Shown here in pieces: positions 1,207 through 28,252 of a stretch of 29,794 nucleotides of DNA. Both the position numbers and the translations under genes were made by a program. The notes under the pieces are model-generated. The model searched no databases. It was not told where the DNA came from and saw only the letters and a list, made by a program, of their open reading frames with translations. Every line of letters starts with the position of its first letter. Within the stretch, counting starts at the first letter, position 1. Source of the DNA: Albugo candida (Eukaryota); NCBI GenBank assembly GCA_040437565.1, contig JBDOQK010000028.1, forward strand, positions 372,001 to 401,794, read 5' to 3'.

Positions 1207-4200
1207 TCAGGATCGCATCTGTGTAAAACTAGTCGACCCATTAAATGCCGAACTGGACGACTGACCAAAAGGTGAAGCTGCAGAAGCACCAAACCCGTTG
1301 CCAAAGCCTGTACCTGCCCCTTGCGAGGATGCAATGCTGCCAAAGCCAGTGCCAACAGAGCGAAAGGAGCCGAAGCCGGAACCAGTTGTCGTAGATGGCT
1401 TGGTAGTACTCGAAGCAAAACCGCCAAATCCACTCCCGCTTCGTTGCTGAAGAGTGTTCGTCCCTCCGAACACTGCCGTCGTTCCACCAAAGGAAGCAGC
1501 CGAGTTTCCTAATGTGGAGGAGGCTCCAAATACTGGCACTGCTGTATTTCTCGATGTCGATTCTGAGCCGAACACTGATCCCGACTGTGGGGTGAGTTGA
1601 GTCAAAGATTGCTTACCATACTTCTTTTCGAGTAAACCGAATAGCTCCGTCTCACGCCCACTATATTTGGCTAAAGTCGTGTCGACGTCCTTTAGTTTTC
1701 CGGGATTATACTTTTGATAGAACTGAACAAGTCTTTCGCGATGACTGCTAGTCGTTCCTCCAAATGGTTTACTTATGGCCATTGGCTGAGAGGGTTTACT
1801 GAAGGTAGATCCAGGTTCCGATGTCCCAAAATTCGCCATGCTGCTAGTGTTTGGTCTTGTATTTGACGAGTTTCCGAATGACGTCAGAAAAGCAGTGCCG
1901 GGAGCACCAGCTGTACTGGAATTCGTTGATGGTGATGCTTGTATCGGGAAAAAAGTGCTTGTGTTGCCAAATGGGCTCGAATTTGTCGAGTGCCGCAAAG
2001 GGGCTACCGTATTCGGCACGGATTCCACTTGAACTTTATACTTATTACTAAGGCTTCTGAACAATTCATCTTCTCTTCCTTTGTACTTGTTCAGTGTCTT
2101 GTCAACATCAGCCAACTTTGACGGATTGTGTTTTTCATAAAACTTGACTAACCGTGCTCGTACTTGTGGATCGATTCTTGTTGTAAACGCTTCAGTTTGT
2201 GCGTTGGGCTTAGCTATAGAGCTTGGTATCTCTTTAGCAACGACATGTACTGGATTGTTTGCTCCTGTCGTGGTCGTTGTCTTGCTCATGGCATTGACTT
2301 GCCATGCAGAGACGTCACCACTTGATGTAGGTACTTTGTTTGGGATCACACCGCTTTCGATAAACTCCTTGACCAACGTCTTCACATTCTGTCGAGTTGC
2401 AAGTCCGTAGGTCACGAACAAACTCTCCAAAAGCTCACTTTCGCGACCTCGATACTCACTCAGCTGTCTCGCAACATTTGCTACTTTTTCGCCATCGATT
2501 TTAGTGTAAAACGCTTCCAGTCGTTGACCAAAACCGATCGATGGCGCAACGGTAATTCTGTTCACACCTCCGACAATCGGTGCTAGTCGTATTGAGTCAT
2601 TTGAATTATTTTTGCTCTTTGCGGAAACATCAGATGAGGTACAGGAGTCGCCTTTCCTGATATTTCGATGCATTGTTGATTCCAAGGGTGATGATTGATC
2701 ATCTGAGTGAATACTTTTTGTGTGCGTATTGTGAGCTTGTTGCGTACCAGCAACACTGACGGATTTCTTAGCATTTTCTGGGTTAATTTTACCAAATTCG
2801 ATTTGTCTTGGAGTCGGGACTGGAGATGGGATCGTGATTCGTGCACTTGACATAAGCTTACTGACAATTTGATCGGGATCTTTCCGGATTATTGCAGAAG
2901 AGATACTCTTCTTTCGCATAACGACAGTAGGGCCCAACATCCGACAATTTATGCCACCGTTGCACAGCTTTGCAAATCGCTCATGCATTGCTGCAGTAGA
3001 ACGCTCTGCCTCAGCTAGCCGTCTCACCATCTCTTTCGTACTTTCTGCTTTATCGCTAAAGACATTCCCAATCGGAAGTGTGATTTCGGGAATGTGTTGG
3101 TCTTGAACATGCAATGCTTCTATCGCGAGTGATAAGTCGCACACTTTGTTGTACTCTGTCTTTGACTTCTCGTAAGTCTGTTTCAACACGCGAAACAAGT
3201 TCTCCGCACGAAACGACGAAATAATCTGGTCATTGTTAGTTGCTTCCTCTAACAAAGTGAGATGCTGCTCCAAGTCATGACAGCATCTATTGATTTCAGC
3301 AATTCTTGCTTTCAGTTTCCTTCGCATCTCTGAAGATTCCATATCTAACGGCTGCTCATTCATCAATTGCTTCCATTGGACATTCTGCAGACCCTGGAAT
3401 AGCTCATAGCCAAACGCGATTTGTTCATGAACTTCACTATCGCTCCCAATCACATAGAGAGTGTCATTTTCAATTTTTTGACGATTTTCATCGAGCGTAC
3501 TGACGTCACGACACAAAGTAATTATATTCTGCTTCAATTGCCTCACTTCAATAAGAGGCTTTGCCTGAGCAGCGGAATTTTGCCTTGCTACATGCTCAGC
3601 GTTCTTCGTGGACCGCTGGACAGATGTCTCAAAGTTGTTGACAAGCTGTGCCATGTACTGCATTATATCGGATTCTGTCTCACTCGGAGCTCCAGAATGC
3701 GCCCATTTCACATTGCTGATCTTCATATCCTGTGCTGTTGACTTTGAAATGACGATAAATGGAGATGGATCCTGGGAGGAATCTTGTGAAATTGCGGAAT
3801 TTGAATGTTGCGCGGCATATGCATCATTCTTCACCTTATAAGGCACTTGAGTCTTTGCTGAAGCATTGGGCGGATACATCAGCGTCAGAGCTTTAGGCTG
3901 TAAAGGTTTCGGCTTGACTGAGGTATCTGGTGGATAAGCGGATACAGCGAGCGCAGGAATGGTTGTAGTCCTAGATGAAGCAGACTTCGAAGCTTGTAAT
4001 AATGGAGGCTTGGCTTTCGTCGAGGTATCTGGTGGATAAGCGGATGCAGCGAGCGCAGGAATGGTTGTAGTCTTGAATGAAGCAGACTTCGAAGCTAGTA
4101 ATAATGGAGGCTTGGCTTTCGTCGAGGTATCTGGTGGATAAGCGGATGCAGCGAGCGCAGGAATGGTTGTAGTCTTGAATGAAGCAGACTTCGAAGCTAG

Positions 4201-7200
4201 TAATAATGGAGGCTTGGCTTTCGTCGAGGTATCTGGTGGATAAGCGGATGCAGCGAGCGCAGGAATGGTTGTAGTCTTGAATGAAGCAGACTTCGAAGCT
4301 AGTAATAATGGAGGCTTGGCTTTCGTCGAGGTATCTGGTGGATAAGCGGATGCAGCGAGCGCAGGAATGGTTGTAGTCTTGAATGAAGCAGACTTCGAAG
4401 CTAGTAATAATGGAGGCTTGGCTTTCGTCGAGGTATCTGGTGGATAAGCGGATGCAGCGAGCGCAGGAATGGTTGTAGTCTTGAATGAAGCAGACTTCGA
4501 AGCTAGTAATAATGGAGGCTTGGCTTTCGTCGAGGTATCTGGTGGATAAGCGGATGCAGCGAGCGCAGGAATGGTTGTAGTCTTGAATGAAGCAGACTTC
4601 GAAGCTAGTAATAATGGAGGCTTGGCTTTCGTCGAGGTATCTGGTGGATAAGCGGATGCAGCGAGCGCAGGAATGGTTGTAGTCTTGAATGAAGCAGACT
4701 TCGAAGCTAGTAATAATGGAGGCTTGGCTTTCGTCGAGGTATCTGGTGGATANNNNNNNNNNNNNNNNNNNNNNNNNNNNNNNNNNNNNNNNNNNNNNNN
4801 NNNNNNNNNNNNNNNNNNNNNNNNNNNNNNNNNNNNNNNNNNNNNNNNNNNNGTAATAATGGAGGCTTGGCTTTCGTCGAGGTATCTGGTGGATAAGCGG
4901 ATGCAGCGAGCGCAGGAATGGTTGTAGTCTTGAATGAAGCAGACTTCGAAGCTAGTAATAATGGAGGCTTGGCTTTCGTCGAGGTATCTGGTGGATAAGC
5001 GGATGCAGCGAGCGCAGGAATGGTTGTAGTCTTGAATGAAGCAGACTTCGAAGCTAGTAATAATGGAGGCTTGGCTTTCGTCGAGGTATCTGGTGGATAA
5101 GCGGATGCAGCGAGCGCAGGAATGGTTGTAGTCTTGAATGAAGCAGACTTCGAAGCTAGTAATAATGGAGGCTTGGCTTTCGTCGAGGTATCTGGTGGAT
5201 AAGCGGATGCAGCGAGCGCAGGAATGGTTGTAGTCTTGAATGAAGCAGACTTCGAAGCTAGTAATAATGGAGGCTTGGCTTTCGTCGAGGTATCTGGTGG
5301 ATAAGCGGATGCAGCGAGCGCAGGAATGGTTGTAGTCTTGAATGAAGCAGACTTCGAAGCTAGTAATAATGGAGGCTTGGCTTTCGTCGAGGTATCTGGT
5401 GGATAAGCGGATGCAGCGAGCGCAGGAATGGTTGTAGTCTTGAATGAAGCAGACTTCGAAGCTAGTAATAATGGAGGCTTGGCTTTCGTCGAGGTATCTG
5501 GTGGATAAGCGGATGCAGCGAGCGCAGGAATGGTTGTAGTCTTGAATGAAGCAGACTTCGAAGCTAGTAATAATGGAGGCTTGGCTTTCGTCGAGGTATC
5601 TGGTGGATAGGCGGAGGAAGAGGTTGTTGGTAAATGGGAAGTCGGCATATTTGCTTGCGACGCTGGAGATGTATCCAAATGGTTTGTCGAGGTCGACGAC
5701 TTTGACGATACGAATTCTCCTTTTATCGACACTTTCAACGCGCAGTTAGAGGCTGTCCCTAAGTTGGAAGTCGACAGCAGAGACGGTTGAGCCTTTGAAG
5801 AGGTATCTGGAGGATACATGGTGGGCGACACTTTCACCTGTGAAGAATCAACGTTGATGGAGGCACAAGAGGGGGCAAGGATGAAGTTTTTCGATAGGTT
5901 GTCAGCCGGGAGCCGAGGCACTTGAGCCTTAGCTGAGGTGTCTGGAGGGTACATTGCTGCCGATAATTTCGGCTTTGGAGCCTCTTCCTCTGTCGAGGTA
6001 CTCGGTGCATGTGTAACGATAGGAACTGCCGTGTCACATGATGCAAGTTCCTCATTGATGGAAAAGCACACTGAAGAGAGATACTTTTCATGCGGTGAGG
6101 TTACTTTGCCACATGGTCGAAGGCTCGCGACCGGGCTAGTCCCTGCTATTGGAGTGCTTACATCAGTAATTGTGCAAAATCCCGGTGACTTTTGACAGTC
6201 GTCGTCCTCACTATCTTCATCTTCGCTATCTTCTGCAAAGAGCCAGTTGGTATACCAGTTCACAAAGATGTCTTCCGGTAGTATACCATCCACGAGCAAG
6301 GGTTTTAACAATGGAAGATGAACTTCTTCACAATATGTAGATCCAAGCGCTTTGAAAAGTTGACTGAAGTCTTCTGAATGGATTGCGCCCAATTCCGAAA
6401 CTGTAGTTTGGAAAGCGTCCCGTGCTGCCTTTCCCGCCTCAACACGTTCTGCTTCTTCATCAGCGCTTTCATCTTCTTCAGCGAATTCATTATCACCATC
6501 TTGACCATAGGACTCCGATTGCGTGGACGGATTGTTTACCTTTGCAGAATCTTTTAGCTGTTTAGCTGCGACATTGGTACTGGGTGTTGCAGTGAGCCCA
6601 CTAAAATCGAAACCAATGTTCTGATCCGCCAGTGTTGCTATCGATTTTATAGAAGTTGAAGATAATCCAAACTTATATGGAGCTGCTGAATCTTTTGTTT
6701 CAAATTTAAAACCTGAGCACGAGCTGTCTGCACGCGTCACCTGAGATTGGTTTGGATTCGGTATTGTACACGCTACGCATCGAAGTGCCTCGGAGTTGTC
6801 ATTTTGTACTGAGCAGCTCGCGCATCTCCAACTTCCTTCTCTAGGCATAAATTGCGAGAGAGGATTCTTGCTTATTGGAACGTCAGTCGTATCAGAAGGT
6901 TTTATTTGTTCTTCTTGGAGTGACATTTGATTTATTGCGTGGGAGCTGTACCACGCTAAGAACTCTTTTTTCTTGATGCAACCAGATTCACGAAATTGTT
7001 GTTGTATTGCTTCAGCCGACAACCGTGTGGTCTTGCAAGATGCATTTAGCAAATTAACAAATTCGCCAGTTCGTGCAAAGGGAATTTCTTCAGTATCATT
7101 GACGTCAATTTCCTTGAATACTTGTAGTGCATGCGTACAGTCCTTTTCAGCGGCCTCGTCTATATCACTCGGCTGAGATTGTGCTTGACGTTTAAAAACA

Positions 7201-8737
7201 TCAATCTTGCCAGTTCGTATCCCTTGTTGCTTTAATAACTTCTTGTCTGGTTTGATCAAAAAACCAATTTCTTCCCCAAAACTGAGATCTACTAGTGCAA
7301 AACTGACTACTAGACCTGATGTCGTGACGCTTGAAAGAATGGGGCATGGTGGATAGAGACCTCGGTCTAAGTTAACTGATTTGCTAGAATTAAGAACGAG
7401 CTGTAGCCCGACTGGTAACGACTCATCATCATTCACATCCATCGGTAAACGTGCTTGATACTTCTCTTGTGGTTTCCAAACTTCCCAATCATTTGAGTCT
7501 GGATCAGCGACAAGAAGCTCGATATCGGCGCTGAGTGAGCATCCGACGAAGAACATTCGCCTATCCGAATAATAGGTAAGATCACTTAAGCAATGTCAGG
7601 AGAGTGATAACTTGCCATTCCTCGAGAAAACACGAGTAGTATTGATGTTTGCGACAATCCATTGCTTCTGTGAAGGCAACGACTTCGTCTAGTGCAATTA
7701 TTCTTCTGTGTTCGTACAGAAACGCTTGCACTACTTCTTCTTCTTGTGTAGTATTCAAGGCTTTGTATCCCAAAAACATAAGCTCCTTTTCGGCCCAGTT
7801 GATGTGATGAACTATGTATCACATATCCCTTATAGAAATACACTTTGAAGTTTTGGCAACGTACCAATAAAATTACCAATTTCAGTGTCGAGAGACTCGG
7901 GAGGGGCAATATGTTCTGAATTGGTGGAAATAGACGAGCGATCATATATCCATACATTTCCATCATTGCTACCAAGTGCAATTTGCTTCCCGCATGGACT
8001 CCAACATGCTACAGCAGCAACACATGAGAGATTGTAGCGGCAATAATTACATTCTAGAGCCCACCAGAAGTTGCCGAGATGGAGTCAATGACATCTTTAC
8101 CACCGTCCAAACGATACAAAAAAGTTTCATTTCCGCTCGTGACTGCTAATAATTCCATCTGCTCGTCATTTTGACAGTTCCAAGGACGCCATGCCATCTC
8201 CAATAAAGTATTCCCAAAGTGTGCGAGGAAAAATGTTGCTTCTGATTTCTTCGTCTGTAAAATGGCTGTCTCGTAAAAGTAAACATTCTGATTGCAAGCA
8301 ACGGCTAAGATTTGCTCATTATGCGAAAGCGATATGTAATACGGAGAAGAGGGTAGAGCAATTTCAAAACAATATGCAGATTTTGTGCGATCATCCTCTT
8401 TCTCTGTCAGCGTAGGAAGCGCTACATGCGTGACATTCAGTCCGTGATCCAATGCTTCATCTCGCGCTTTGAGATACTTTTGACACAGATTCTCAGTGAT
8501 TCTATACTCACACACCATAAAGCCTACAAATATATGGTTAGAATTTGCTCCGATCAGACGTATGGACTTGCCATTTCGAGAGCAAATGTAGCTCAATCCA
8601 GATCGATTTCCATGCTGGAAAAGCTGTACGTTTACGCAGTTGTTGAATTCTAGAACTTTCTCAACAAACTGGGAATCAAAGTCCAGACTAATGCGTCCTG
8701 TGTCCAACATCCGCACATGTTCCACATCACGGTCCAT
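1207..8737 (-). CDS. NUP214: Nup214/Nup159-like FG nucleoporin. Proposed exons (minus): 8737-8572, 8523-8065, 8008-7865, 7811-7616, 7560-1207 (last exon spans the N gap at 4753-4852). At least ~2425 aa if the gap is 59+102n nt.
   Basis: Splicing joins ORFs 8054-8758, 7582-7779, 4707-7556 and 1207-3879 in consistent phases (1,1,1,2). The spliced product gives ATSACWSPCGKQIALGSNDG and YSCFLEEWRMFFVGCSLSADIELL, resembling Nup214 propeller motifs (CWSPKGKQL; YIEEW...S.EV). It also has a central coiled coil and a C-terminal S/T/G-rich FG tail (GFGGF, SPFG, AFNGSTSFTQMRS). 3880-4752 is open and in frame with the 890-aa ORF. Confidence 0.85.
1618..2526 (-). repeat. Three dispersed ~40-aa helical modules RL..FY.K.(N)P.KL.DVD.TL..Y.GRE.ELF..L..KY (about 2407-2526, 2038-2160, 1618-1743)
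   Basis: Direct comparison within the 890-aa translation. Confidence 0.85.
3919..5610 (-). repeat. Coding tandem array, 102-bp unit (YPPDTSTKAKPPLLLASKSASFKTTTIPALAASA), about 15-16 visible units, interrupted by an assembly gap
   Basis: gaggtatctggtggata recurs at exact 102-bp spacing (4022, 4124 ... 4736; 4879 ... 5593). Only the edge units are diverged. Confidence 0.97.
6752..6840 (-). other. RanBP2-type zinc finger within the nucleoporin
   Basis: GSWRCASCSVQNDNSEALRCVACTIPNP fits W-x-C-x2-C-x3-N-x(6-7)-C-x2-C. Confidence 0.85.
7561..7615 (-). other. Intron 4 (55 nt, GC-AG)
   Basis: TG|GCAAGT...GATAG; removal bypasses a stop and yields FLEEWRMFFVG in frame with the 949-aa ORF. Confidence 0.8.
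7812..7864 (-). other. Intron 3 (53 nt, GT-AG)
   Basis: G|GTACGT...CATAG; restores frame (FIVHHINWAEKELMF). An alternative in-phase donor GTAATT lies 12 nt upstream. Confidence 0.75.
8009..8064 (-). other. Intron 2 (56 nt, GT-AG)
   Basis: G|GTGGGC...CTGTAG; removal bypasses a stop and creates SACWSPCGKQ. Confidence 0.85.
8524..8571 (-). other. Intron 1 (48 nt, GC-AG, in frame with no stop)
   Basis: ATG|GCAAGT donor, CTAAC branch point, TTTGTAG acceptor. Because it is in frame it could also be retained. Confidence 0.65.
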
Positions 8738-8770: not shown

Positions 8771-8934
8771 AACCGGTTTGTTGTGAACGTGTGAGATTAC
8801 AGNNNNNNNNNNNNNNNNNNNNNNNNNNNNNNNNNNNNNNNNNNNNNNNNNNNNNNNNNNNNNNNNNNNNNNNNNNNNNNNNNNNNNNNNNNNNNNNNNN
8901 NNAACCAGTTTGTTGTGGACCTGTGAGATTACAG
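8771..8934. repeat. 32-bp direct repeat (3 mismatches) on either side of the N gap just upstream of the nucleoporin start
   Basis: aaccggtttgttgtgaacgtgtgagattacag (8771-8802) vs aaccagtttgttgtggacctgtgagattacag (8903-8934). Confidence 0.7.
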
Positions 8935-9149
8935 TACTAGCCAATCATCGCTTATGAGTTTCCTCTAACAGGATGATTCACTTAACATATACCGTATGCA
9001 ACTCGATCCTTTTTGATTGGCCAAACTACTATGAAATACCTCTACAAATTGATTATCATAGCCTCCAGTATATTTGTGTACAAAGCAAAAGCAGCACATG
9101 ACAATATCACTTTATACCGGACGCAGGATTTTTGAAGAATGCTATAATG

Positions 9150-11100
9150 CATCAAGTAGCGTCAAAAGCAATTTTGAATATACATGGCTTTAAAAAGGGC
9201 TTTGCAATTTTTGAAATAATTGCAGAATATGGGGAGAAGCTTTCTTTGAAAATGGCAGGAGCTTAACAAAATTAATATTTTTACGAAGGTCGATCCGCTA
9301 TCACTCATCTTTTTGTTCAAAAAATCCAGTGCAAATCCTAGCAATATTGAAAAGAGGGATACTGGCTGCTATAGCGACAGCGAAACAAGGGCTGATAATG
9401 AAGTTGAGTTAAAGCGCATCCAAAAGCCTGTACGATACATTGGCAATACAGAAAGAAGCCAAGGACAGCAGATTGACCTTACTTCTTCATTCTTCAAAAA
9501 CACACGATTATCGGAAAACTGGTAAAATTTTTCGACATGATGCGCCAATCTTCACTGCGAGCGTGACGTCTCAGAAAATGAAAATCATCAGTGCTGCGGT
9601 AACAGCACTGAATTGCTGAATCCGAACGAGAAGTACAATGCAAGTACAGAAACTGATCAGTAATACAATGGAATCAGCCAATGCTTAAATACCTCCCTAA
9701 GAATGATAGCGACAAGCAAACTCACATTGAGATTCACGCGCTGACACAGTACGATTTTTTAGGTTTTGCGCAATATCGAATGTCGTCTAGGTGGCATTAT
9801 GAGTGATCTCAGGTGATCAAAGACCGGCGCGGCCGATTCTTGCTAAGAGTCGAATGATACTGCCGGACTAGTAAGAAGAGCAACACCGTATTACAACGGT
9901 AATGAAAGAGACAAAAGTAATCAACCACATGCGGAGTCGCTCCTCTCCCGGGTTTGAATGATAAGGTAGCTGCATCGAAGCATCAAGTCGATGCCGCTTG
10001 CCAGTGTATTATGATCGCGTTTGATTCGGCTGACAGAGGCATCTTGCCGCGACCACAACGTTCGTCGGCGATCATCTTCCTTAACAAAAAAATAAAAGAA
10101 TTGATCTGGCTATTTAGAGCGCCATAATTCTTTATGTCAATCTGCGCGTACATTCAGATTTCGAGCGCATCGATTGCAGTGCTTTTGTAACAAAAGTGGC
10201 CTACCAAGAGAAGAAACGTTTGTGCGAGAACTTTCGATGGATTTTCTTACTCAGGACCTGTCAAACATACAAGACTTGATGTCGATCCTGGAGATAAAAC
10301 ATACGCGACTCTCTCGGATTTCAAGAAACAAGCTGGTAAAGGAGACAATTGGCATCTATACTTCGCATCGTAAAACGAAAGTACATCGTAGAATTTTTTT
10401 TTTAGCCACTAGGCTGGCCTTCGACACCGTGAACAAAAAAAATAGCGATGATTCAGGAAGATAGAACTCAGTACAGTACACCGCACCGTGTGGTTGACAA
10501 AAACATCTTTTCTCTAAGATTTGAGTAAGCCCTCAAGCTGAGATGAAGGACATGGGATTTGAAATGATGGCATGGCTGCTACAAATGTACTTTATTTAGG
10601 GGCGATTCGACACTGCTCCCGAAGTACCGAGTAAATTCCAACGCAACTCGAACATATCAAGTGCACTGGGATGGATCTAGTACGAAGCTTGGGAATTAAG
10701 CAAATTAACCATACTCTCTTTCAGTCAGACCATGTCGTGTACTCGCATTACCAATTCGACGTTACTGAGTCCCTAAGGCTTGATCATGTATCGGAATATT
10801 CCATTTAGCGAGAAAGCGACTAGTTTTGATCACTTCCCAGTGTTACAAAACAATAATGCCCCTCTTATGTTTCGATTAATTCCGGTGGAGCAGTACGATC
10901 TTGCTAGAATGTCTGACACAAGTCTTGCATTGGACGTCATAATTCAAGAAATACTGTCATTCAAGAAATACCGCCTCCGGAACCAGATAAACAACGGAAC
11001 TTTGAACACATATTCGAAAAAGCGCATCTACTGGCATTCAGTTGGAATACAAATTATCGCTAAACTCTCCATAGAGATGTCAAATCCACTTCAATAGGTC
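9150..11100 (+). mobile_element. Degenerate non-LTR retrotransposon (L1/Tx1-like) reverse transcriptase relic; boundaries approximate
   Basis: Ordered remnants across frames: MRSRSSPGF (SPGPDG-like, ~9929), CIMIAFDSADRGILPRPQRSSAIIFLNKK (~10005-10090) and GDKTYATLSDFKK (FLDFEKA-like, ~10290-10327). Many stops and frameshifts. Confidence 0.6.
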
Positions 11101-11196
11101 CGATGCATACCTATTATGGTCAACCTTCTTGGAATGAAAGACATAGAGACCTAGAGACGTCACTTATGTTTACCCACATATCACCATTACATTCAT

Positions 11197-11330
11197 AATT
11201 TAAGGAGCTGCTATCCGGACCCCCCCTCTCCTCACATATGTTCCAGTCCACTGCTATATGTACACCCCCCGTTAATAGCCAATTAAAAGTCTGGAATACT
11301 TCCTCGCGTCGCAAAACTGTCCGGACGTGT
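11197..11330 (-). repeat. Copy 1 of a G-rich dispersed repeat (blocks A, B, C), probably the end of a DNA transposon
   Basis: Reverse complement matches 17927-17984 (A), 17998-18019 (B, 22 nt exact) and 18945-18960 (C, 16 nt exact). Confidence 0.75.
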
Positions 11331-12423
11331 AAATACTTGCTCACCTCTGTTCAAGTAGCAAGCTCGAGACCATGAACGAATAACAACAAAAAAGCAGCAT
11401 TTTGAAAGAAAACACTAGTCGTTTCGGTGAAGTCATAATCTTTCTCTTCCTATCTTTTCTGTACTAATTCAGCTTTTTTGCTGAATCTGAAGCGTTTGAT
11501 GTCGCAAAAATGATCTTTTGTCTTATTTCAGAAGCGATCAATTTCCTCCAGCTAAAAGAGCAGTGGTGTAGCATCCATATAATCGTGAGCACACATAAGC
11601 TCAATGAAAATGTGACTAATCATAACAGAGGTGGCTTCATAAACAAAAAAGCCTATGTCACAGCAAGCCAAGTCGTCTAATGCAGTAGCGAACATCATTC
11701 ATTCATTTAAGCGGCAATATTACAAATACAAGAACGGACGCATCAAAAGTAGCTTGAATATTTTTTCAAAAAATGTTTCTTTTAGCGAAAAGTCGAAGAA
11801 TCTGTCTGAACGACTCGACTGGTATACAATCAAAAGAATTAAATCAACCTGTATAGCACAGGAGCATGTACCAAATCCAGCAACTAGGAGAGATGTACCA
11901 CGTCAAAGTATTGTTTCAATCAAAAAGCCTTCAGCCTAGCCGAGAAAGAAAATTTGTCTCAGACTCCTCGAAGCAGACATACTGATCAATCACTTCAGAT
12001 TGTGGCTGTATAAGAACATGATCTTGGTTAAGATGCCATCTAAAAATCGGAGACGAGTGCAAGCATGGTGTATGATGCTGTGAGGAAGCCTTCATGATTG
12101 ATAAAAACATTCAGCACTGCTGGATGGCTTGTACAGTGCCAAGAGTATGTGAAGAGCAGCACATGACGGCCTATCGAGGTGTTTCTCCTATCCTGCATTA
12201 AAGATTGCTCGAGTTATTATACACTCGAATGACAATGATTAGAAAGAGTAGGAGGTGTTGTATCCTTAAAGTGATAAGTGTCGTGTACAAGTTACGGTCA
12301 TTGTCAAAAGTGTGTGAGAAGGCGCTGTTGGAATTGGCCATCTGGGCGACTATTCGTGTAATTTGTGACAGATGGCGCCGACTGACGGATGTGTCACTTT
12401 TGCATGGATTATGAGTGCGGCTG

Positions 12424-12651
12424 TGTAACGCCGGAAGGAGGAAGCAGAGGAAGATAATTGTTGGCGGAGCTGTATTTTATACCTGGTTCATGAGAGTGAA
12501 GTGTAGAAGCGATCAATAACTAGTAGTGCATACGAGTTGAACAAACTAGATCAGTATTGAATTAAGGAATCCTGGTTCACCTATCTGATTGGCTAATCCA
12601 GTTCTCCAACTATGTAGAGCTATGCATGCATGTACAACGGAGGTTGTTACA
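12424..12651 (-). repeat. Gypsy 3' LTR (228 bp)
   Basis: TGTAAC...GTTACA termini; PPT GGGGGGA immediately internal (12652-12658). Confidence 0.93.
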
Positions 12652-15600
12652 TCCCCCCGGAATTGACATCTCGTTGTCGCTTCTTGAAATCGGCGATGAG
12701 AACATTCCAATGAGAAATATGACGAATATCTTGTGCCGCTCCCATATAGCTTCGTGCTCGAGTAATCAATGCCACTTCACGAGCCATTCAGGTTTACGCT
12801 TAAATTGACGCTTCTGAAAATGCTGTTCTATGATGTGCATCGTGTCGCCACTGTCCTCTTCGAAATAGGTTGGGATGATTTCGAAATCGGACGAGTTTGA
12901 AATCGCGGTAGATTTCCCACATAGTGACTCAGCACATCAATATCGAAAGTAGAGTTCAATCGACTCATACTCCGAGGAAGCTTCAATTGCGCAACATTCG
13001 AGTCGACCATTTTTACAATTTGAAATGGTCCAACTTTGCAAGAAGCTATTTTGGCGCGTTTTCCATCAATGCCTTGTGTCAAATGTTTCGCAGGTATGCA
13101 ACGAGTATCCAACATGATCAAATCTCCAATTTTGTAAGTAATATCGGTGCGTTTTCTGTCGTAGCACTTCTTTTGACGATCCTGAGCTTGAAGTAAATGT
13201 TTCGTGGTTAGATCAATGATTTCTTGACGACGGCTTTGGAAATGTTTTGCACACTCAGCGATTGCACGTTGCACCTGAGTTGTGACGCAAGGAGTACTTA
13301 GCGAATTCAACGGATTGCGTTCTTTGCGACCAGTATCAATTCGAAAGGTGACATACCAGTTGATGCACTGACTAGCGTGGAATGAGTATATTTAATTGTC
13401 CCTAAATAATCGGACCAATCACGTCCATGATACGAAATCATACAGCATAGAGAGTCTTCCAAAATCAGATTTTGACGGTCTGTTTGTCCGTCGGCTTGTG
13501 ACCGATATGAAGTTGTCATATGCAGAAGAATTCCCATCAGCTTGGCAAGAGCGAATTAAAACTTCAAAACAAACTTGGAATCTCGATCGCTGATAATAAT
13601 CGATGGTAGAACATGATGATAAACGACACAATCAAAGAAATGACACGCTGTAATATGGGCATCATCATTGCGATTGCACGCTCTATATTTTGACCGTTTG
13701 GACAGTTTGTCGACAACTGTCATGATAGCATCGAATCTGTTTGATTTTGGTAATCCCGTAATGAAATCCATAGAGATAACTGACCAGAATTTTTCCGGAA
13801 TTGGGAACAGAATCATTTATCCATTCTTGCGAGCGTTCCTGTATTTCCAGCAAGGGCATGTTTCACAACTCCGTACGTAATATCGAACGTCTTGATTAAT
13901 TGTAGGCCAACGGTACCATTGAGCGATGCGTAAAAATGTTCGTTGAGCACCAGGATGTGCGGCAATGTTGGAGTAATGAAAGCATGCGATGATTGAAGTT
14001 AGCAGATAATTATCTTTTCTGTTCGGTACACACACACGCATCATCATTTGTGACTTGAATTAAAGCAAAATATATCCATTGGCAAATTCCTTGTAAACCG
14101 AATTGTACGAACCAAGCGAGCTCCAATTCTGAGATTCTTGTGTCACATTAACAGCCACGGATGAAGGCTCGGTTGCGCTTATAGAACGAGACGTACTTGA
14201 TTTTTCAAGTATATTGCCATTAGTAAGCTTCAAATCATCAACATTAAAGTCGCTGATAGAATCCTCCCTCTCGAGTATATGAAAGTGTGAGGATGAACCT
14301 GCGCAATTATGAACATCGAACTGTTGATTAGACACGACACCGTTGGCAATTCGGAACCTTGACGTGATAAAGCATCGGCTACCACATTAAAATGACCTTG
14401 AAAGTGATGCAGCTTGAATGTAAACTGCGAAAAGAATGTCAAATATCGAGCCAGCTTTGGCGAAACTTTCGGACGATGAAGAAACCATTGCATGCCGTGG
14501 TGTCTGTGTAGATGTCAGCTTCACGACCATAAAGATAATGACGCCACTTTTCCAATGCAAGCTTGATTGCAAAAAGTTCCTTTTCATGTGTCGGCCAATT
14601 AAGATCATGAATCCTCCATCTTCTTGGAAAAGAATGCAATGGGATGATAGCAACCAGAATGAAGCTAAGAAAGAGCACCACCAATACGATATCCAGAGGG
14701 GTCCGTTGTCACAATGAAACTATATTAGGCTGAAAGCACCGTATCCCGTCTGCTTTGCGTAGTTAAGCAGCCTCAAGCTCGGGTAGTACTCGGGTGGGTG
14801 ACCACCGGGGAAGTCCGAGTGCTGTCAACTCATTTTGACTTCAACGTCCTGAAGAGCGGCCTTGAGTTGCTCAAACGCATGAGTCTGGACATCCTTCCAT
14901 TCCCAAACATGTTTGTTCTTGACTAGAGGGCCAAGTGGTAACGCTAGAGTTGCGTAGTCACGAATGAACCGACGATAGTAACCAGCCACACCAAAAAATT
15001 AATAGTTGTTTCTGATTTGTAAGAGTCGGCCATGTCGCAATAGCTTCTGTCTTTCGAGTATTCACTCTAGTTCCTGAGCCGAAATGGTATGACCAAAAAA
15101 ATTCACTTCTGACTGGCCAAAACGACATTTGGACTGATGGCAGACTAACTTCTCACGCCGAAGAATTCCAAACAGAATTCGAAGAAGGTCAACATGTTCT
15201 TCCAGACTAGGGGGAACACAAAAACGTCATCTATATAGACAACAGTGAATTTGTATCTCGCAAAAAGTACTCGCATAAGACGAGACCAAAAATCAGGAAT
15301 ACCAGACAGTCCCATAGGAGCCACACACGACTGATAAGTTCTCGCATGTGTGCGAAAGGCGGTATAGTTGCGGCTTTTGAATGCGATCCGCGTTTGATGA
15401 TAGCCTTCGGCCAGATCTAGAACTGAAAAGATGACACAACCACACATCTGATAAGAAAGTTCGTCGATGGGAGGAAGTGGTATCTTCGGAATAATCGTCT
15501 AAAAATTGACCTACCGGTAATCAATAAACCATCGAAGAGGTAGATGCGCATTGTCAGAGCGTACCCATTCGGATCGTGATATGTTTTGCTAAGTAATAGG

Positions 15601-17280
15601 ATCCTTTTTAGATATATCATATATATTCGAAACCCGTGGAGAGTCTGAAACTTCGATTCAACCTTTCCTGAGCTTTTCCGCAACAAACATGTCAAGTGCA
15701 TCTTGTTGACCTTGGATAGGCGAAACGGGGCACAGTTGCTAGGTATAGAATCTGGTCTGATATAAAGATCAAAGCCAACACGACGTTCAGGTGGAAGTTC
15801 ATCAGGAAGTGTCTCTGGAAAGACATATTTATACTACTTCAAGAGCGTAGTAATTGATCGAGGTACCGTATCACCCTCCGTCATCAAAGCGCAGACCTTT
15901 ACGCGATAGACTTCATCGTATTCCCGATTCTTGACTTTGCGTTCAAATTTCACTGCAGCAATTTCCACATCAGTTTCACTACTTGTACCCGTACTAGTTT
16001 GTGTCGAAGGCAACCGCTGATGCGGAAATGAAATTACATGCAAACGCCAATCAAGCTGCGGTTGGCACTTGATAAACTACGGTTTGCCCAAGGTGACATC
16101 ATGAGAAGAGCCCAACGGCCATTCCATGATTTGCAAATTGCGAAATTTAAAGCGATCAAATATGATAGTTGCAACACCCTTTTTGATGGAGCGAGTTTTT
16201 GTAGAAGTTTCATCAAATCTTGTAACTTGGGAACCACCAGAGTGTGGCATTTTTTTCACCAAGCCGGGACGGACGACATTACAGGTTGCACCGCTATCAA
16301 ACATAATAGTGACAGGTGTTCCATCACAAGTTCCTTGTTTACGAATAAGTTCGTTCTCTGGATGCACCGGATCCTTCTATCTCGACAATATCCACTTCGT
16401 TCCCGAAACTTGTAATAGAAGGTAACGAGTACGTCGCTCTTGGAGACGTGGGAGCATTGAAGCTTACAGATGATTGTTCATGTCGAGTACCGTAAGATTG
16501 CTTCTTTTCATTCTTGAGCTTGTAACATTGCTCGATAACATGACCGGTTTCTTACAGTAGCAGCATTTCTCGACGAAGAAGTTGATGGTGAGGAGCGACG
16601 ATGTTTTGGGTATCCTGAATCGATCTTCACTAGTTCTGGTATATTCTCCTGCGTGACCGGTGATGCAGATGGTGATGATGATAATGCTGATTAGAATTTG
16701 CACGTGATCGTTCCTGCGTGTATACTGGTGGACGGTAATTCGTCCCCCGGACACGATGAGATCGATCTTACTCCAACGCAATCTTCATGGCCTGTGAAGC
16801 CGTAGCACACCAGCGATATTGAACTTGTTCACGTATGGGACTTACTCGTCCTCGTGTAAAGTAAGTAATCCTATCCAAGTCGCTCATGTCCGTAACTTGC
16901 ATTATAGCGTCACGGAAACGGAAAACGGGAAATATAGATTTCGAAGTTCGGATTGCTCTTCTGTTTGAGTGCGTATAATTGATCACGCAAGCATTCTTGC
17001 AGATCGGGGATACAAATTTATCATTTACTTGAACGATGAGGTCTTGCATGTCTTCGATAAATGGCTTCTTCAATTTGCACCAAGCTGCGGAATTTCCATT
17101 GAAATTGGCGGTCGTGATTGCAAAAATTCGAGCACTTTGATTGACATCGCGCCAGTCGATATTCTTTGCTTCGAAGTACTGAGCCAGTTGATCAAAGTAC
17201 AGATTGATGGATTCGCCCATTTTACCATCAAATTGAGGTAAGCTGATCCCTTCACTTTTATTTCACGCTTGGTCATAGCT
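12652..17280 (-). pseudogene. Gypsy gag-pol, fragmented by many stops and frameshifts
   Basis: ORF fragments 16768-17220, 16077-16367, 15145-15447, 14439-14684, 14230-14493, 13817-14047, 13556-13816, 13307-13537 and 12828-13310. The chromodomain is MHIIEQHFQKRQFKRKPEWLVKWH*LLEHEAIWE (~12735-12840). Confidence 0.92.
14722..14829 (+). rRNA. 5S rRNA: 5S rRNA copy lacking ~10 nt at the 5' end (probable pseudogene), followed by tcatttt
   Basis: ATATTAGGCTGAAAGCACCGTATCCCGTCTGCTTTGCGTAGTTAAGCAGCCTCAAGCTCGGGTAGTACTCGGGTGGGTGACCACCGGGGAAGTCCGAGTGCTGTCAAC closely matches oomycete 5S as I recall it. Box A (AGTTAAGC) and box C region are intact. The 5' strand of helix I (complement of GCTGTCAAC) is absent. 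Confidence 0.93.
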
Positions 17281-17521
17281 TCAAGGAATTGCTGCTGTTA
17301 TTCGACCAATTCGATCAATGTTTTCGTGGTGTCGTCGGGGGACCATCCTTGGGAGTTCAATGACGTCATGATAACCCAAAAACAAAAAAAAGTCCGACCA
17401 AATAGAGCCAGAGCAAACGACAAACACTCGTCGAGCGGCTTTCCCAATGTCGTGACGCTAAACAGCGCGTAAGAAAAACTCCTTCCGGACGACCAACTAC
17501 CAATGAGTTATGGGACCAGCA

Positions 17522-17531
17522 GCTGCTACCA
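17522..17531 (-). promoter_or_regulatory. Gypsy primer-binding site TGGTAGCAGC (tRNA-iMet 3' end)
   Basis: 2 nt after the LTR end; TGGTAGCAG is the complement of the initiator tRNA 3' end CTGCTACCA. Confidence 0.8.
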
Positions 17532-17533
17532 GT

Positions 17534-17704
17534 TGTAACGCCGGCAGGATGAAGCACACGAAAATAATTGTTGGCGGAGCTGTATTTGATAAAAATGGAA
17601 AGTGAGATTTTTCATTAAAGAATTCTGGTTGACCCATCTGATTGGTTAATCCAGTTCTCCAGCTATATAGAACTATGCATGCATGTACAATAGAGGTTGT
17701 TACA
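17534..17704 (-). repeat. Gypsy 5' LTR (171 bp)
   Basis: Homologous to 12424-12651 with a shorter, replaced middle segment; followed on the minus strand by AC-TGGTAGCAG. Confidence 0.93.
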
Positions 17705-17926
17705 GGCTGTTATTGATGTCACTTTAGTATGGTGTATACAGAACGATTGCGTATGAGAAAAGGAGTTGAAAAGATATTGGAGAGGTTGAAAGGTTGCTAG
17801 TTTACAATATGATAATCAGTATCAAATTTTCCTCTTGTGGTTAATCCGATTCCTTGTCTGCCAATAGGCAACATCATCACTTGAGTGACGAATCTGTTTC
17901 GAACAGATTCGTAACAAGAGGAAACT

Positions 17927-18967
17927 ACGCGTCCGAACAGTCTCGCGACGCGAGGAAGTTTTCCAGGCTTTTTATTGTCTATTAGGGGATATACAAAGGG
18001 GGTGTACATATAGCAGTGGCCATGTTTTATATATTTTAATAGCCACCCCTCCCCTAAAATCAAATATGAGTCTATTATACCTTGTGATGTTTTGGTTCGT
18101 TTGTGTGTTGAGTTCGGCGTTACAGTTTTGGTAAAGGGAGATGCGTTGACAAAAATTCCGATAGACGTATAATCAAATTAATAAAATGCTATGACTGCTG
18201 AATCTTTTCGATCGTTGATTTACTGAATTGTTTGAAAGGGTGTAATGAATGGGGAAGTTTATCACAAAAATGAGAGTGACGGATAAAATTCTCTATAGCC
18301 TGTACACTCCTAATTCCCACCTGCTCATACCTAGTTACTCATTTTCATTTTAAAGCTCCCAGCTGGACCAACATTTCCGCGCGGAATTCTAGGACAAGCG
18401 GGACATCGTCGGCGGAATCGCTGTGATTTCAGTAGCCTGAAGATAACCTGGTAAGAAGAAATCATACACGTATCGCTGTGGCTTACCTCAACGCCCATTT
18501 CTTGCACTTTTGCATTTCTTTTTCTATTGGTAATTGTCATGTCAGTTAGACAGTATCGAAGGGATCTTAATTCAAACCCGCATGCATGATGCTGTTGACT
18601 TACAACATCGCGCACTATAAAACAGCACGGTCGTTCAATGACGCCATAGCGAGGGACAGTCACCCGTGGTTGAACTATTTCAATGTCGCGTGAACCACAA
18701 ATCGACCATATTCCAATAGAAAGACATTAAGTGGGAGAAGAGGCCGTGGTCATGTAGCCCATATGTGCTATATAGGGTAAGGGGTTTTACGATGTCCCGC
18801 GCAATATTATGTAATCTANNNNNNNNNNNNNNNNNNNNNNNNNNNNNNNNNNNNNNNNNNNNNNNNNNNNNNNNNNNNNNNNNNNNNNNNNNNNNNNNNN
18901 NNNNNNNNNNNNNNNNNNGGGGGGGGGGTGGTGGTGGTTGGGTATCCGGATAGCAGCTCCCATAATT
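17927..18967 (+). repeat. Copy 2 of the G-rich dispersed repeat, inverted relative to copy 1, with ~0.9 kb (including a gap) between blocks B and C
   Basis: acgcgtccgaacagtctcgcgacgcgaggaag...ctatta; gggggtgtacatatagcagtgg; tccggatagcagctcc. Confidence 0.7.
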
Positions 18968-22153: not shown

Positions 22154-22391
22154 GGATGGAGCGTGTGTCAAAGGAAGAAAATACATCAACGTTAAGATGA
22201 CTAGTTCACTATTTGCTAATCTAAAGCTTATTCCAAATTTTCATGAAGTAACGTTGCCAGCATTACTTACATTAGTTACATGACTCACATTTGTAATTTT
22301 TGTGAGCCATCATCTAAAACTTCCCTGAATGTTCTCAGAGAATTCTCTGAATTTGGTGCGTCTACATGAGCGAGGATTGTTTTGTGCAACA
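22154..22391 (-). repeat. Copia 3' LTR
   Basis: Starts TGTTG on the minus strand after the PPT; aligns with 28010-28252; left end approximate. Confidence 0.8.
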
Positions 22392-23853: not shown

Positions 23854-24429
23854 TCATGGCTTTTGATAGATTCGGAATACTTCTATGGGTTCCTATTTGC
23901 GATACATGCGTTCTCTATGCTAATTCGAAGTCGTTTTATCTGCGACGGTCTTCATCAAGTGTTTCCTTTTTTTATTAGTTCAGCTCCTTACGGAACTGTT
24001 TCATCGAAAGTTGCAGAAGGGGGTAAAGCTCTGTCTCCGCGGGAGGTTGATTATCCACTAGTGCCGAATAGATAATGCTCACTATTTGAATNNNNNNNNN
24101 NNNNNNNNNNNNNNNNNNNNNNNNNNNNNNNNNNNNNNNNNNNNNNNNNNNNNNNNNNNNNNNNNNNNNNNNNNNNNNNNNNNNNNNNNNNTCATGGCTT
24201 TTGATAGATTCGGAATACTTCTATGGGTTCCTATTTGCGATACATGCGTTCTCTATGCTAATTCGAAGTCGTTTTATCTGCGACGGTCTTCATCAAGTGT
24301 TTCCTTTTTTTATTAGTTCAGCTCCTTACGGAACTGTTTCATCGAAAGTTGCAGAAGGGGGTGAAGCTCTGTCTCCGCGGGAGGTTGATTATCCACTAGT
24401 GCCGAATAGATAATGCTCACTATTTGAAT
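23854..24429. repeat. 238-bp direct duplication flanking an N gap (probably an unmerged contig overlap)
   Basis: 23854-24091 and 24192-24429 are identical except one substitution seen (ggtaaagct/ggtgaagct). Confidence 0.85.
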
Positions 24430-28009: not shown

Positions 28010-28252
28010 TAATAGCGCTTGTGTCGAAATGAAAAAAATATAGAAGTGATTGTGCCATTCCCGTAAAGATCATTAGTTCACTATTCGCTAATCTAAGCCT
28101 TATTCCAACTTTTCTCGAAGTAACACTACTAACATTACTCCCATTAGTAACAAGACTAACGTTTATAATCTTTGTAAGTCATCATCTAGAACTTCCCTGA
28201 ATGCTCTCAGATAGTTCTCACGATGTAGTGCCTCTACATAGAGTTAGGATTG
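28010..28252 (-). repeat. Copia 5' LTR (outer ~12 nt missing)
   Basis: Aligns with 22154-22379; abuts the PBS. Confidence 0.8.

What the first reader, a model, noticed from the sequence alone, without database searches (positions are those of the whole stretch)
14700..14860. Near-pristine 5S rRNA captured antisense inside the RT-RNase H junction of a dead Gypsy element
Seen: on the minus strand pol reads HAFEQLKAALQ.., then 108 nt of antisense 5S with its tcatttt tail, then SFIVTTDPSGYRIGG. Roughly 20-25 nt of the expected linker (LPDF..P) is missing, and there is no TSD or poly(A). The 5S lacks ~10 5' nt but looks barely mutated while the host is riddled with stops, so it is either much younger than the host or is being maintained. 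Known: Cassandra TRIMs carry 5S in their LTRs and SINE3s have 5S heads, but an internal antisense pol insertion is neither. Inference: templated repair or retroposition of a Pol III precursor. The internal promoter and T4 terminator remain, so a chimeric 5S with a TE-derived 5' end could be transcribed, and any read-through would be antisense to RT.
Basis: partly seen in the sequence, partly recalled or inferred. Interest (0 to 1): 0.72.

Follow-up and report, generated by a model that had tools for sequence, protein, structure and literature searches.

The report
Truncated 5S pseudogene in dead Gypsy
A 5S ribosomal RNA copy that lacks its first ten bases was pasted, once, into the polymerase gene of an old broken Gypsy retrotransposon, replacing 35 bases; it looks like an ordinary scar of DNA repair, not a working gene.

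Summary
Rfam finds one 5S rRNA on the + strand (75.1 bits, E 2e-14). True 5S homology starts at 14722. It sits antisense between the RT and RNase H domains of a complete but decayed Ty3/Gypsy copy on the - strand (12424-17704), which has LTRs, a 5-bp target duplication and a pol gene split into many pieces.

Public contigs laid on the site show three things. Every listed sister Gypsy contig crossing the site lacks the insert and carries 35-40 native bases there. Genomic 5S copies begin with ten bases that the window copy lacks. The window copy differs from the majority 5S at two of 105 positions.

Both differences hit letters conserved in the Rfam consensus, so nothing points to maintenance. 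Two changes is also only mildly fewer than expected from the host's age (P 0.06-0.08).

The 126-base insert replaces 35 bases, has no target duplication, and has 3 unexplained bases at each junction. That fits capture of 5S-derived RNA/cDNA or array DNA during end-joining repair.

One independent contig spans the left junction. No listed contig shows the right junction. Expression could not be tested. Verdict: genuine, one-off, probably inert.

The parts
12419..12423 (.). Target-site duplication GGCTG, left copy, of the host Gypsy element
   Evidence: Same 5 nt at 17705-17709.
12424..12651 (-). 3' LTR of the host element (228 nt, TGTAAC...GTTACA)
   Evidence: Aligns with 17534-17704. 16 mismatches in 149 ungapped nt, plus one 57-nt indel.
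12652..12660 (-). Polypurine-tract-like run next to the 3' LTR (TCCCCCCGG on the + strand)
   Evidence: Read from the sequence. The assignment is by position only.
12828..14059 (-). Integrase region in pieces: H2C2 zinc finger 13817-14059, rve core 13556-13816, Tf2-type SH3 12828-13391
   Evidence: Pfam PF17921 at 1.3e-15 and PF24626 at 6.9e-11. PF00665 at 0.0013 is below its cut-off. The frames are broken.
14439..14718 (-). RNase H domain of pol. Its first codon after the insert is TTC at 14718-14716.
   Evidence: PF17917 5.8e-12. Sister copies align up to 14718. FIVTTDPSG is read.
14719..14721 (+). Left junction letters ACT, found neither in sister copies nor clearly in 5S. CT may be a mutated 5S 'CC'.
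   Evidence: Sister contigs stop at 14718 and 5S contigs start at 14722 (tables 5 and 7).
14722..14830 (+). 5S rRNA body, positions 11 to the 3' end. The first 10 nt of the genomic 5S are missing. Private changes lie at 14755 and 14760.
   Evidence: RF00001 75.1 bits.
14831..14841 (+). 3' trailer: CA, a T4 run (14833-14836), then GACTT, which matches the flank of other genomic 5S copies
   Evidence: table 7: seven X2 records continue TTTTGACTTTG... after ..CAACT. X3 and X6 records share ..CAACTCATTT.
14842..14844 (+). Right junction letters CAA of unknown origin
   Evidence: Sister copies resume at 14845 and have ..GTG before it (table 5c).
14845..15498 (-). RT domain and RT-RNase H connection of pol (..HAFEQLKAALQD, last host base G at 14845)
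   Evidence: PF00078 1.1e-09 for 15145-15498. Translation. Joints.
16077..16376 (-). Aspartic protease of the host element
   Evidence: PF13650 3.6e-06.
17522..17531 (-). Primer-binding-site-like TGGTAGCAGC, two bases inside the 5' LTR
   Evidence: Read from the sequence. The link to initiator tRNA-Met is recalled, not tested.
17534..17704 (-). 5' LTR of the host element (171 nt)
17705..17709 (.). Target-site duplication GGCTG, right copy

Best explanation
This is a non-functional, 5'-truncated 5S rRNA pseudogene. It arose once, when a chromosomal break inside an already integrated and decaying Ty3/Gypsy copy was sealed by end joining.

About 35 bp of the RT-RNase H linker were lost. A 120-nt piece of 5S-derived nucleic acid was pasted in instead, running from position 11 through the T-run plus 5 nt. 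One to three stray bases lie at each junction.

The piece came from the cell's extremely abundant 5S pool. The template was either cDNA or RNA of a precursor or read-through Pol III transcript, copied from its 3' end and stopping 10 nt short of the 5' end, or a fragment of 5S gene DNA. The data do not separate these.

Shown: the anatomy, the 35-nt replacement, absence from sister copies, and the loss of helix I. Inferred: break repair as the process, insertion after the element had integrated, and lack of function.
For: 1. Sister Gypsy contigs skip 14719-14844. Where the letters between the two sides are given, they carry 35 or 40 native nt there (5 contigs table 5c: X2 two, X3 one, X6 one, X23 one). 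By my hand translation, the 35 letters read in frame as ..QD-APVLKLPDQAKR-FIV.. Further sister contigs end in the same native letters: X2 loose ends, 2 records at 14718 and 4 at 14845.
2. The insert is 126 nt for 35 nt lost, a net +91. This shifts the frame and brings a TGA stop. There is no target duplication and no A-tail. Three unexplained bases lie at each junction.
3. Summed contig depth over the 5S part is about 1e5-9e5, against about 1e3 on the transposon flanks in the DNA runs X2 and X3 (table 2). The tool warns that this figure is no copy number. 5S is therefore a very abundant donor.
4. The insert's ends nearly coincide with the ends of the transcription unit (+11 to T-run +5). That is expected for a transcript-derived piece.
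5. The host element is old. Its LTRs differ at 16 of 149 aligned nt, K2P 0.117, and pol is split over many frames. The 5S has only 2 private changes in 105 nt. The likelihood ratio is about 3-4 for insertion after integration over insertion at integration.
6. The two private changes hit conserved model positions 45 and 50, and the closing helix is lost. There is no sign of selection.
7. An independent contig (X6 record 28, 14574-14783, 2 other letters) spans the left junction. Both flanks are collinear parts of one transposon copy in a gap-free stretch, 8903-18818.
Against: - No orthologous empty site was seen. All contigs lacking the insert come from paralogous copies. On the host stretches of 141 nt or more listed table 8, those paralogues differ from the window at about 8-19% of the letters. 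The timing relative to integration therefore rests only on 2 observed against about 6 expected substitutions (P 0.06-0.08).
- No listed contig spans the right junction. The table is cut, with 1002 pieces not shown.
- The RNA-or-DNA question is open. GACTT beyond the T-run argues against a normally terminated transcript, while the near-coincidence with the gene's borders argues against a random DNA fragment.
- No microhomology is visible at either junction.
- Break repair leaves no signature that is unique to it.
Confidence: 0.6

Rival explanations
1. The 5S was captured inside the Gypsy particle before integration. During plus-strand DNA synthesis, the growing sense strand left the minus-strand DNA after ..CAGGACG. 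It copied a co-packaged 5S precursor RNA from its 3' end towards its 5' end, then returned 35 nt further downstream. The element then integrated already carrying the antisense patch.
For: - Orientation and polarity fit exactly. In the element's sense direction, the 3' end of the 5S (with its U-run) comes first and the truncated 5' end comes last.
- Retroviral particles are reported to package Pol III RNAs, including 5S rRNA in MLV, and a 7SL piece was found patched into an experimental recombinant (PMC4997597, passages read).
- An insert as old as the LTRs is not formally excluded (P 0.06-0.08).
Against: - Two private substitutions against about 5.6-6.1 expected gives a likelihood ratio of about 3-4 against equal age.
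- No sister copy listed shares the patch.
- Switching from a DNA template to an RNA template during plus-strand synthesis is, as far as I recall, much rarer than switching between RNAs, which would give a sense insert.
- GACTT beyond the T-run requires a read-through transcript.
Confidence: 0.15
2. This is retroposition of a 5S transcript by a LINE-type reverse transcriptase. It would have been primed at a nick or a pre-existing break (endonuclease-independent), with 5' truncation and a target deletion instead of a duplication.
For: - 5' truncation with a preserved 3' end is the usual polarity of target-primed reverse transcription.
- LINE-1 is documented to carry along 5S pieces, which are often antisense and truncated (PMC13174262, passages read).
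Against: - There is no target duplication, no A-rich tail, no LINE sequence attached and no T/A-rich nick site at the junctions.
- In the L1 chimeras, the 5S pieces keep the 5' part (truncated at positions 46 or 90), and 20 of 27 have duplications. That is the opposite of what is seen here.
- No LINE was seen in the window, although I did not search for one specifically.
Confidence: 0.1
3. This is a functional or maintained chimeric 5S-like gene. TFIIIA and Pol III would use the retained internal control region and the T4 run, producing a transcript with a transposon-derived 5' end, or an RNA antisense to RT that feeds silencing.
For: - The internal region from position 11 onward and a T4 run are present.
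- Only 2 of 105 positions differ from the majority 5S.
- The minimum-energy fold pairs transposon-derived AAUGA with trailer UCAUU as a substitute closing stem.
Against: - Both private changes strike conserved consensus letters. One is model position 50, which by my recollection lies at the start of box A.
- Helix I is lost.
- The fold is no better than shuffles: z -1.03, with 31 of 200 shuffles folding as well.
- The ACTTTC motif that directly precedes the genomic copies is absent (table 7).
- The low divergence is statistically compatible with neutrality.
- It is a single locus.
Confidence: 0.03
4. This is an assembly artefact: a high-copy 5S read or contig wrongly threaded between two transposon pieces.
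For: - The window is a scaffold with five 100-N gaps and has duplicated gap flanks elsewhere.
- 5S is so abundant that short-read graphs break inside it.
- No listed contig spans the whole stretch or the right junction.
Against: - A contig from a different study and organism label (X6 record 28, 210 nt, 2 other letters) crosses the left junction and carries the window's private 5S letters.
- The two flanks are the same transposon copy, collinear and only 35 nt apart in element coordinates. A random mis-join would not give that.
- The nearest gaps are 5.8 kb and 4.0 kb away.
Confidence: 0.03

Closest known systems
Dispersed, truncated 5S rRNA pseudogenes ('orphons') outside the 5S arrays, as described in fungi and animals (recalled; the listing shows papers on rRNA pseudogenes and birth-and-death evolution of 5S, of which I read only the abstract starts)
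   Same: A single 5S-derived fragment away from the functional copies. It is truncated, lacks the closing helix, and carries changes at conserved positions.
   Different: Here the pre-insertion sequence is known, because the target is a repeated element. The 35-nt loss and the junction letters can therefore be read directly.
Filler-DNA or cDNA capture at double-strand breaks repaired by end joining. Examples: capture of linear fragments in yeast (PMC1976456) and NUMT-mediated repair in primates (PMC2567098), for both of which I saw only the listing and abstract start. Ty1 cDNA capture is recalled.
   Same: An insertion of unrelated abundant nucleic acid, with a small target deletion, no target duplication, and a few extra bases at the junctions.
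   Different: The donor is 5S rRNA or its gene, and the break lay in a transposon. The process is inferred from the scar, not observed.
LINE-1/5S rRNA chimeric insertions (PMC13174262, passages read)
   Same: A 5S piece that is truncated and antisense relative to a retroelement. Reverse transcription of 5S is plausible.
   Different: - The L1 chimeras sit at the 5' end of a new L1 insertion and keep 5S positions 1-45 or 1-90.
- They mostly have 7-17-bp duplications and the L1 nick motif.
- Here the piece lies inside an LTR element, keeps position 11 to the end, and has no duplication.
Host Pol III RNAs packaged in retroviral particles and occasionally patched into the viral genome: 5S in MLV and a 7SL patch in a recombinant (PMC4997597, passages read)
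   Same: A Pol III RNA segment inside a retroelement's coding region.
   Different: No evidence here that the patch predates integration. The orientation is antisense. The host is a Ty3/Gypsy retrotransposon.
Cassandra/Ajax TRIMs and 5S-derived SINEs such as SINE3 (PMC10946416, passages read)
   Same: A 5S-derived sequence physically joined to a retroelement.
   Different: In those families the 5S promoter module sits in the LTRs or forms the 5' head, and it drives the element's own transcription and spread. Here it is internal, antisense, 5'-truncated, present in one copy only, and it disrupts the element.
The 119-bp 5S gene inserted antisense in the rDNA spacer of turtles and crocodiles (PMC8789306, abstract and passages read)
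   Same: A gene-sized 5S insertion in antisense orientation into another repeat, by an unknown mechanism.
   Different: That copy is full length, conserved, expressed and incorporated into ribosomes. This one is truncated and shows no sign of conservation.

Membership tests
5S rRNA (Rfam RF00001): sequence family | Covariance-model score at or above the gathering score | tested here: met
   75.1 bits against 38, E 2.1e-14.
Functional 5S rRNA gene | Helix I formed by the 5' and 3' ends | tested here: not met
   The first 10 nt of the genomic 5S (..GTAGACGGCC) are absent (table 7). Six helix I positions are flagged as non-pairs.
Functional 5S rRNA gene | Conserved core letters intact | tested here: not met
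   The window has U where the consensus has C at model position 45, and U where it has A at position 50. The majority genomic 5S has C and A there (14755 and 14760, table 3).
Functional 5S rRNA gene | Upstream flank like that of the genome's other copies | tested here: not met
   The loose-end consensus of genomic copies ends ..ACTTTC directly before the gene in X2, X3 and X6 (table 7). The window has transposon coding sequence there. Whether that motif is needed for transcription was not tested.
Functional 5S rRNA gene | T-run terminator | tested here: met
   TTTT at 14833-14836.
Functional 5S rRNA gene | Transcribed and incorporated into ribosomes | not testable with these tools
   No RNA holder is listed. 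Only contigs were laid, and these cannot show transcripts.
Ty3/Gypsy LTR retrotransposon (the host) | Domain order PR-RT-RNase H-IN on one strand | tested here: met
   Pfam hits in that order on the - strand, 16376 down to 12828.
Ty3/Gypsy LTR retrotransposon (the host) | Two LTRs with TG..CA ends and a target duplication | tested here: met
   LTRs at 12424-12651 and 17534-17704, with TGTAAC..GTTACA ends and GGCTG on both sides.
Cassandra-type TRIM | 5S promoter module inside both LTRs of a short non-autonomous element | tested here: not met
   There is only one 5S match in the window, and it is internal. The element is 5.3 kb with pol.
5S-derived SINE (SINE3 type) | Intact 5S head at the 5' end, followed by a body and tail, flanked by a target duplication, in many copies | tested here: not met
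   The 5' end is truncated, nothing follows the T-run but 8 nt, and there is no duplication. Copy number of this form could not be counted.
LINE-mediated processed retrocopy | Target duplication and an A-rich 3' tail at a T/A-rich nick site | tested here: not met
   None of the three is present at the junctions. A 35-nt target loss is seen instead.
Filler capture at an end-joined break | Target deletion, no duplication, short extra bases or microhomology at the junctions, and a single locus | tested here: met
   35 nt lost; ACT and CAA at the junctions; sister copies lack the insert. These features are compatible with this process but not exclusive to it. An orthologous empty site was not available.

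The most novel reading that the evidence does not exclude
The 5S patch was acquired inside the Gypsy particle. A plus-strand DNA end would have switched onto a co-packaged 5S precursor RNA and back. That would make this a natural fossil of host Pol III RNA packaging and DNA-to-RNA template switching by a Ty3/Gypsy reverse transcriptase. The orientation and polarity of the insert fit this exactly, and equal age with the LTRs is not excluded (P 0.06-0.08).
Probability: 0.13. Interest if true: 0.5.

Novelty: new member of a known kind. Interest (0 to 1): 0.22.

Why it matters
The practical value is small. It is a clean natural example in which both the inserted piece and the pre-insertion sequence can be read, because the target is a repeated element. 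It shows how very abundant 5S sequences seed stray copies across a genome.

It also warns annotators that a full-length, high-scoring Rfam 5S hit (model positions 1-120, 75 bits) can be a truncated pseudogene.

It would matter more if a genome-wide census showed many such +11-truncated copies, which would point to a systematic reverse-transcription route. It would also matter more if the patch proved to predate integration.

Tried and rejected
- **Whole genome.** None is held for this window. No census of 5S copies, source gene or other truncated copies was possible.
- **RNA evidence.** No RNA holder is listed. X23 is only guessed to be RNA, and what it holds over the 5S part are contigs with 9-11 other letters.
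- **Right junction.** No listed contig spans it.
- **Metagenome scans for this organism's 5S arrays.** A 33-nt pattern gave 0 hits. A 24-nt pattern gave 1 hit, L001. That hit is a chance match in a G+C-rich contig with no Rfam 5S match at gathering score.
- **Earlier findings of this scan.** Both look-ups were blank.
- **Second 5S or a tRNA in the window.** None found.
- **RNA fold of 14712-14836.** z -1.03, so it gives no support for a substitute structure.
- **Literature search on Albugo.** I guessed the organism to be a white-rust oomycete from contig sets of about 33-38 million letters, about 42% G+C, and 'plant metagenome' holders. The guess is untested. The search for '5S rRNA', oomycete and Albugo gave 4 papers, none on 5S organisation judging by title and abstract start.
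- **Which 3' end form is the majority in the source organism.** This could not be settled. ..GTC|TACATTTTCA is seen in X6 (4 records) and X23 (1 record). ..GTCAACT|TTTTGAC.. is seen in X2 (7 records). ..CAACTCATTT|AAC.. is seen in X3 (2 records) and X6 (1 record).
- **Protein database searches for intact sister polyproteins.** Not run, because one search already gave the native linker.
Full report
**What is there.** Rfam finds exactly one RNA family in the window: 5S rRNA at 14713-14830 on the + strand, 75.1 bits against a gathering score of 38, E 2.1e-14. A permissive scan adds no second copy, and there are no tRNAs. The match is reported as full length (model 1-120). However, the first ten model positions are forced onto unrelated letters, and six positions of the closing helix are flagged as non-pairs.

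**The host.** The minus strand carries a complete but decayed Ty3/Gypsy element.
- Pfam places its domains in order: protease (16077-16376), reverse transcriptase (15145-15498), RNase H (14439-14708), integrase zinc finger (13817-14059), a weak integrase core (13556-13816, below cut-off) and a Tf2-type SH3 domain (12828-13391).
- pol is scattered over many stop-bounded pieces in all three frames.
- The LTRs are 12424-12651 and 17534-17704, with TGTAAC...GTTACA ends. They differ by one 57-nt indel and by 16 mismatches in 149 ungapped nt (p 0.107, K2P 0.117).
- They are flanked by a 5-bp duplication, GGCTG.
- A polypurine-like run and a TGGTAGCAGC primer-binding-like site lie where expected. Linking the latter to initiator tRNA is my recollection.

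**Evidence from public runs.** No whole genome is held. I therefore searched sequencing runs: 20 rows from 14 studies hold part of the stretch, and none is on record as RNA. I laid the contigs of three DNA runs (X2, X3, X6) and one run guessed to be RNA (X23) on 14400-15100 at 80% likeness. Four results matter.

1. **Sister copies lack the insert.**
   - Contigs of paralogous Gypsy copies align up to 14718 and resume at 14845 or 14850. On the host stretches of 141 nt or more listed in table 8, they differ from the window at about 8-19% of the letters.
   - Between those points they carry 35 or 40 other letters (5 contigs in table 5c: X2 two, X3 one, X6 one, X23 one). Further X2 contigs end in the same letters (2 records at 14718 and 4 at 14845).
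   - By my hand translation on the minus strand, the 35 letters give ..QD-APVLKLPDQAKR-FIV.., which is the usual RT-RNase H linker.
   - The window's 126 nt (14719-14844) therefore replace 35 native nt. The net gain of 91 nt shifts the frame and brings a TGA stop.
   - No listed sister contig carries the insert.
2. **The 5' end is truncated.** Genomic 5S contigs diverge from the window exactly before 14722 (records: X2 14, X3 6, X6 4, X23 1), and their consensus there ends ..ACTTTC GTAGACGGCC. The window copy lacks the first 10 nt, or 8 if C14720/T14721 are a mutated 'CC'. It also lacks the upstream motif.
3. **The body is almost unchanged.** Within 14722-14826, nearly all 5S depth in X2, X3 and X6 differs from the window at only two places: 14755 (window T, majority C) and 14760 (window T, majority A). 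These are Rfam model positions 45 and 50. Both are conserved letters in the consensus, and the majority matches them.
4. **The 3' end varies among genomic copies.**
   - Three forms are seen: ..GTC|TACATTTTCA (X6 four records, X23 one), ..GTCAACT|TTTTGACTTTGTATTG (X2 seven records) and ..GTCAACTCATTT|AACTTT.. (X3 two, X6 one).
   - The window reads ..GTCAACTCATTTTGACTT, then CAA, then host sequence.
   - Its AAC ending is therefore inherited from a variant source copy. The five bases after the T-run match the flank of other copies.

**Is it real DNA?**
- For: X6 record 28 (210 nt, 14574-14783, two other letters), from another study and organism label, crosses the left junction and carries the window's private 5S letters.
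- For: the two flanks are collinear parts of one element copy, 35 nt apart in element coordinates, inside a gap-free stretch (8903-18818).
- Open: no listed contig shows the right junction. The table is cut, so that junction remains unconfirmed by independent data.

**Young or maintained?** If the 5S were as old as the host's integration, about 5.6-6.1 changes would be expected in 105 nt, taking half the LTR distance. Two are seen, giving P(≤2) = 0.08 or 0.06. The likelihood ratio is about 3-4 in favour of a later insertion. This is a mild signal, and it needs no selection. A host 'riddled with stops' and a 105-nt insert with two changes are compatible with the same neutral rate. The two changes hit conserved letters, helix I is gone, and the fold is no better than shuffles (z -1.03). 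I see no support for maintenance.

**Mechanism.** Three features fit end-joining repair of a break with capture of abundant nucleic acid: the scar has a 35-nt target loss, no duplication and no A-tail; three unexplained bases lie at each junction; and the event is confined to one locus. Summed contig depth over the 5S is two to three orders of magnitude above that over the transposon (table 2; the tool warns that this is no copy number).
- The insert runs from +11 to five bases past the T-run, almost exactly the transcription unit. That favours a transcript copied from its 3' end. The polarity also fits extension of the element's sense strand on 5S RNA.
- The GACTT beyond the T-run favours gene DNA or a read-through transcript.
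- I cannot separate these two templates without the genome.

**Rivals.**
- *Capture inside the particle by a plus-strand switch.* Polarity fits, and 5S packaging and a 7SL patch are reported for retroviruses (PMC4997597, passages). It is disfavoured about 3-4 to 1 by the age test.
- *LINE-type retroposition.* Documented L1/5S chimeras keep the 5' part of 5S and mostly have duplications (PMC13174262, passages), unlike the insert here.
- *A functional chimeric gene, and an assembly artefact.* Both are unlikely.

**Comparison with known things.** This is not a Cassandra-type or SINE3-type arrangement (PMC10946416, passages). In those, the 5S module sits in the LTRs or forms the head, and it serves the element. 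It resembles stray 5S pseudogenes and filler capture at repaired breaks (listing and abstract starts only). The turtle rDNA-spacer 5S is also gene-sized and antisense, but it is intact and expressed (PMC8789306). My searches returned no paper whose title or abstract start describes a 5S piece inside pol of an LTR retrotransposon. That is a statement about those listings only.

**Verdict.** It is not supported where it suggests maintenance or a likely chimeric transcript. This is an ordinary pseudogene with an unusually legible scar.

Noticed in passing
window 3920-5615: A 102-bp tandem array (8.2 + 7.5 copies, 99% matches) split by a 100-N gap. It has strong G over C skew on the + strand. It lies inside a very long minus-strand open frame (1207-5745 and 4707-7595), so it would encode 34-residue repeats. 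Pfam gives only a sub-threshold RanBP zinc-ribbon hit in the upstream part.
   Followed up: partly
window 23854-24091 and 24192-24429; also 3996-4752 and 4853-5609: The sequences on the two sides of 100-N gaps are 99.6-100% identical. They look like overlapping contig ends that scaffolding left unmerged, or in the second case array copies.
   Followed up: no
window 22190-22379 and 28062-28252: A direct repeat of about 190 nt at 81% identity, 5.9 kb apart. It may be the LTRs of a second, older element.
   Followed up: no
window 11248-11331 and 17926-18019: An inverted 94-nt repeat at 79% identity on either side of the Gypsy element, outside its LTRs. It is probably fragments of another repeat family into which the element inserted.
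   Followed up: no
window 14400-15052, run X23: A 2216-nt contig of a sister Gypsy copy (about 10% different, without the 5S insert) is present in a run guessed to be RNA. This could mean that sister copies are transcribed, or that the run holds DNA (record 9).
   Followed up: no
window 14723, 14755, 14813, run X3: Some 5S-matching contigs of X3 end in letters that look like sequencing-adapter sequence (GCTCTTCCGATC and its complement). These are probably library artefacts assembled with the very deep 5S reads. That the letters are adapter sequence is my recollection (table 7).
   Followed up: no
3' flanks of genomic 5S copies (table 7): Several different 5S downstream flanks share a TTGACTTGG box some 15-30 nt after the gene, and the upstream flanks share ACTTTC just before it. 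These may be conserved flanking elements of this organism's 5S units.
   Followed up: no
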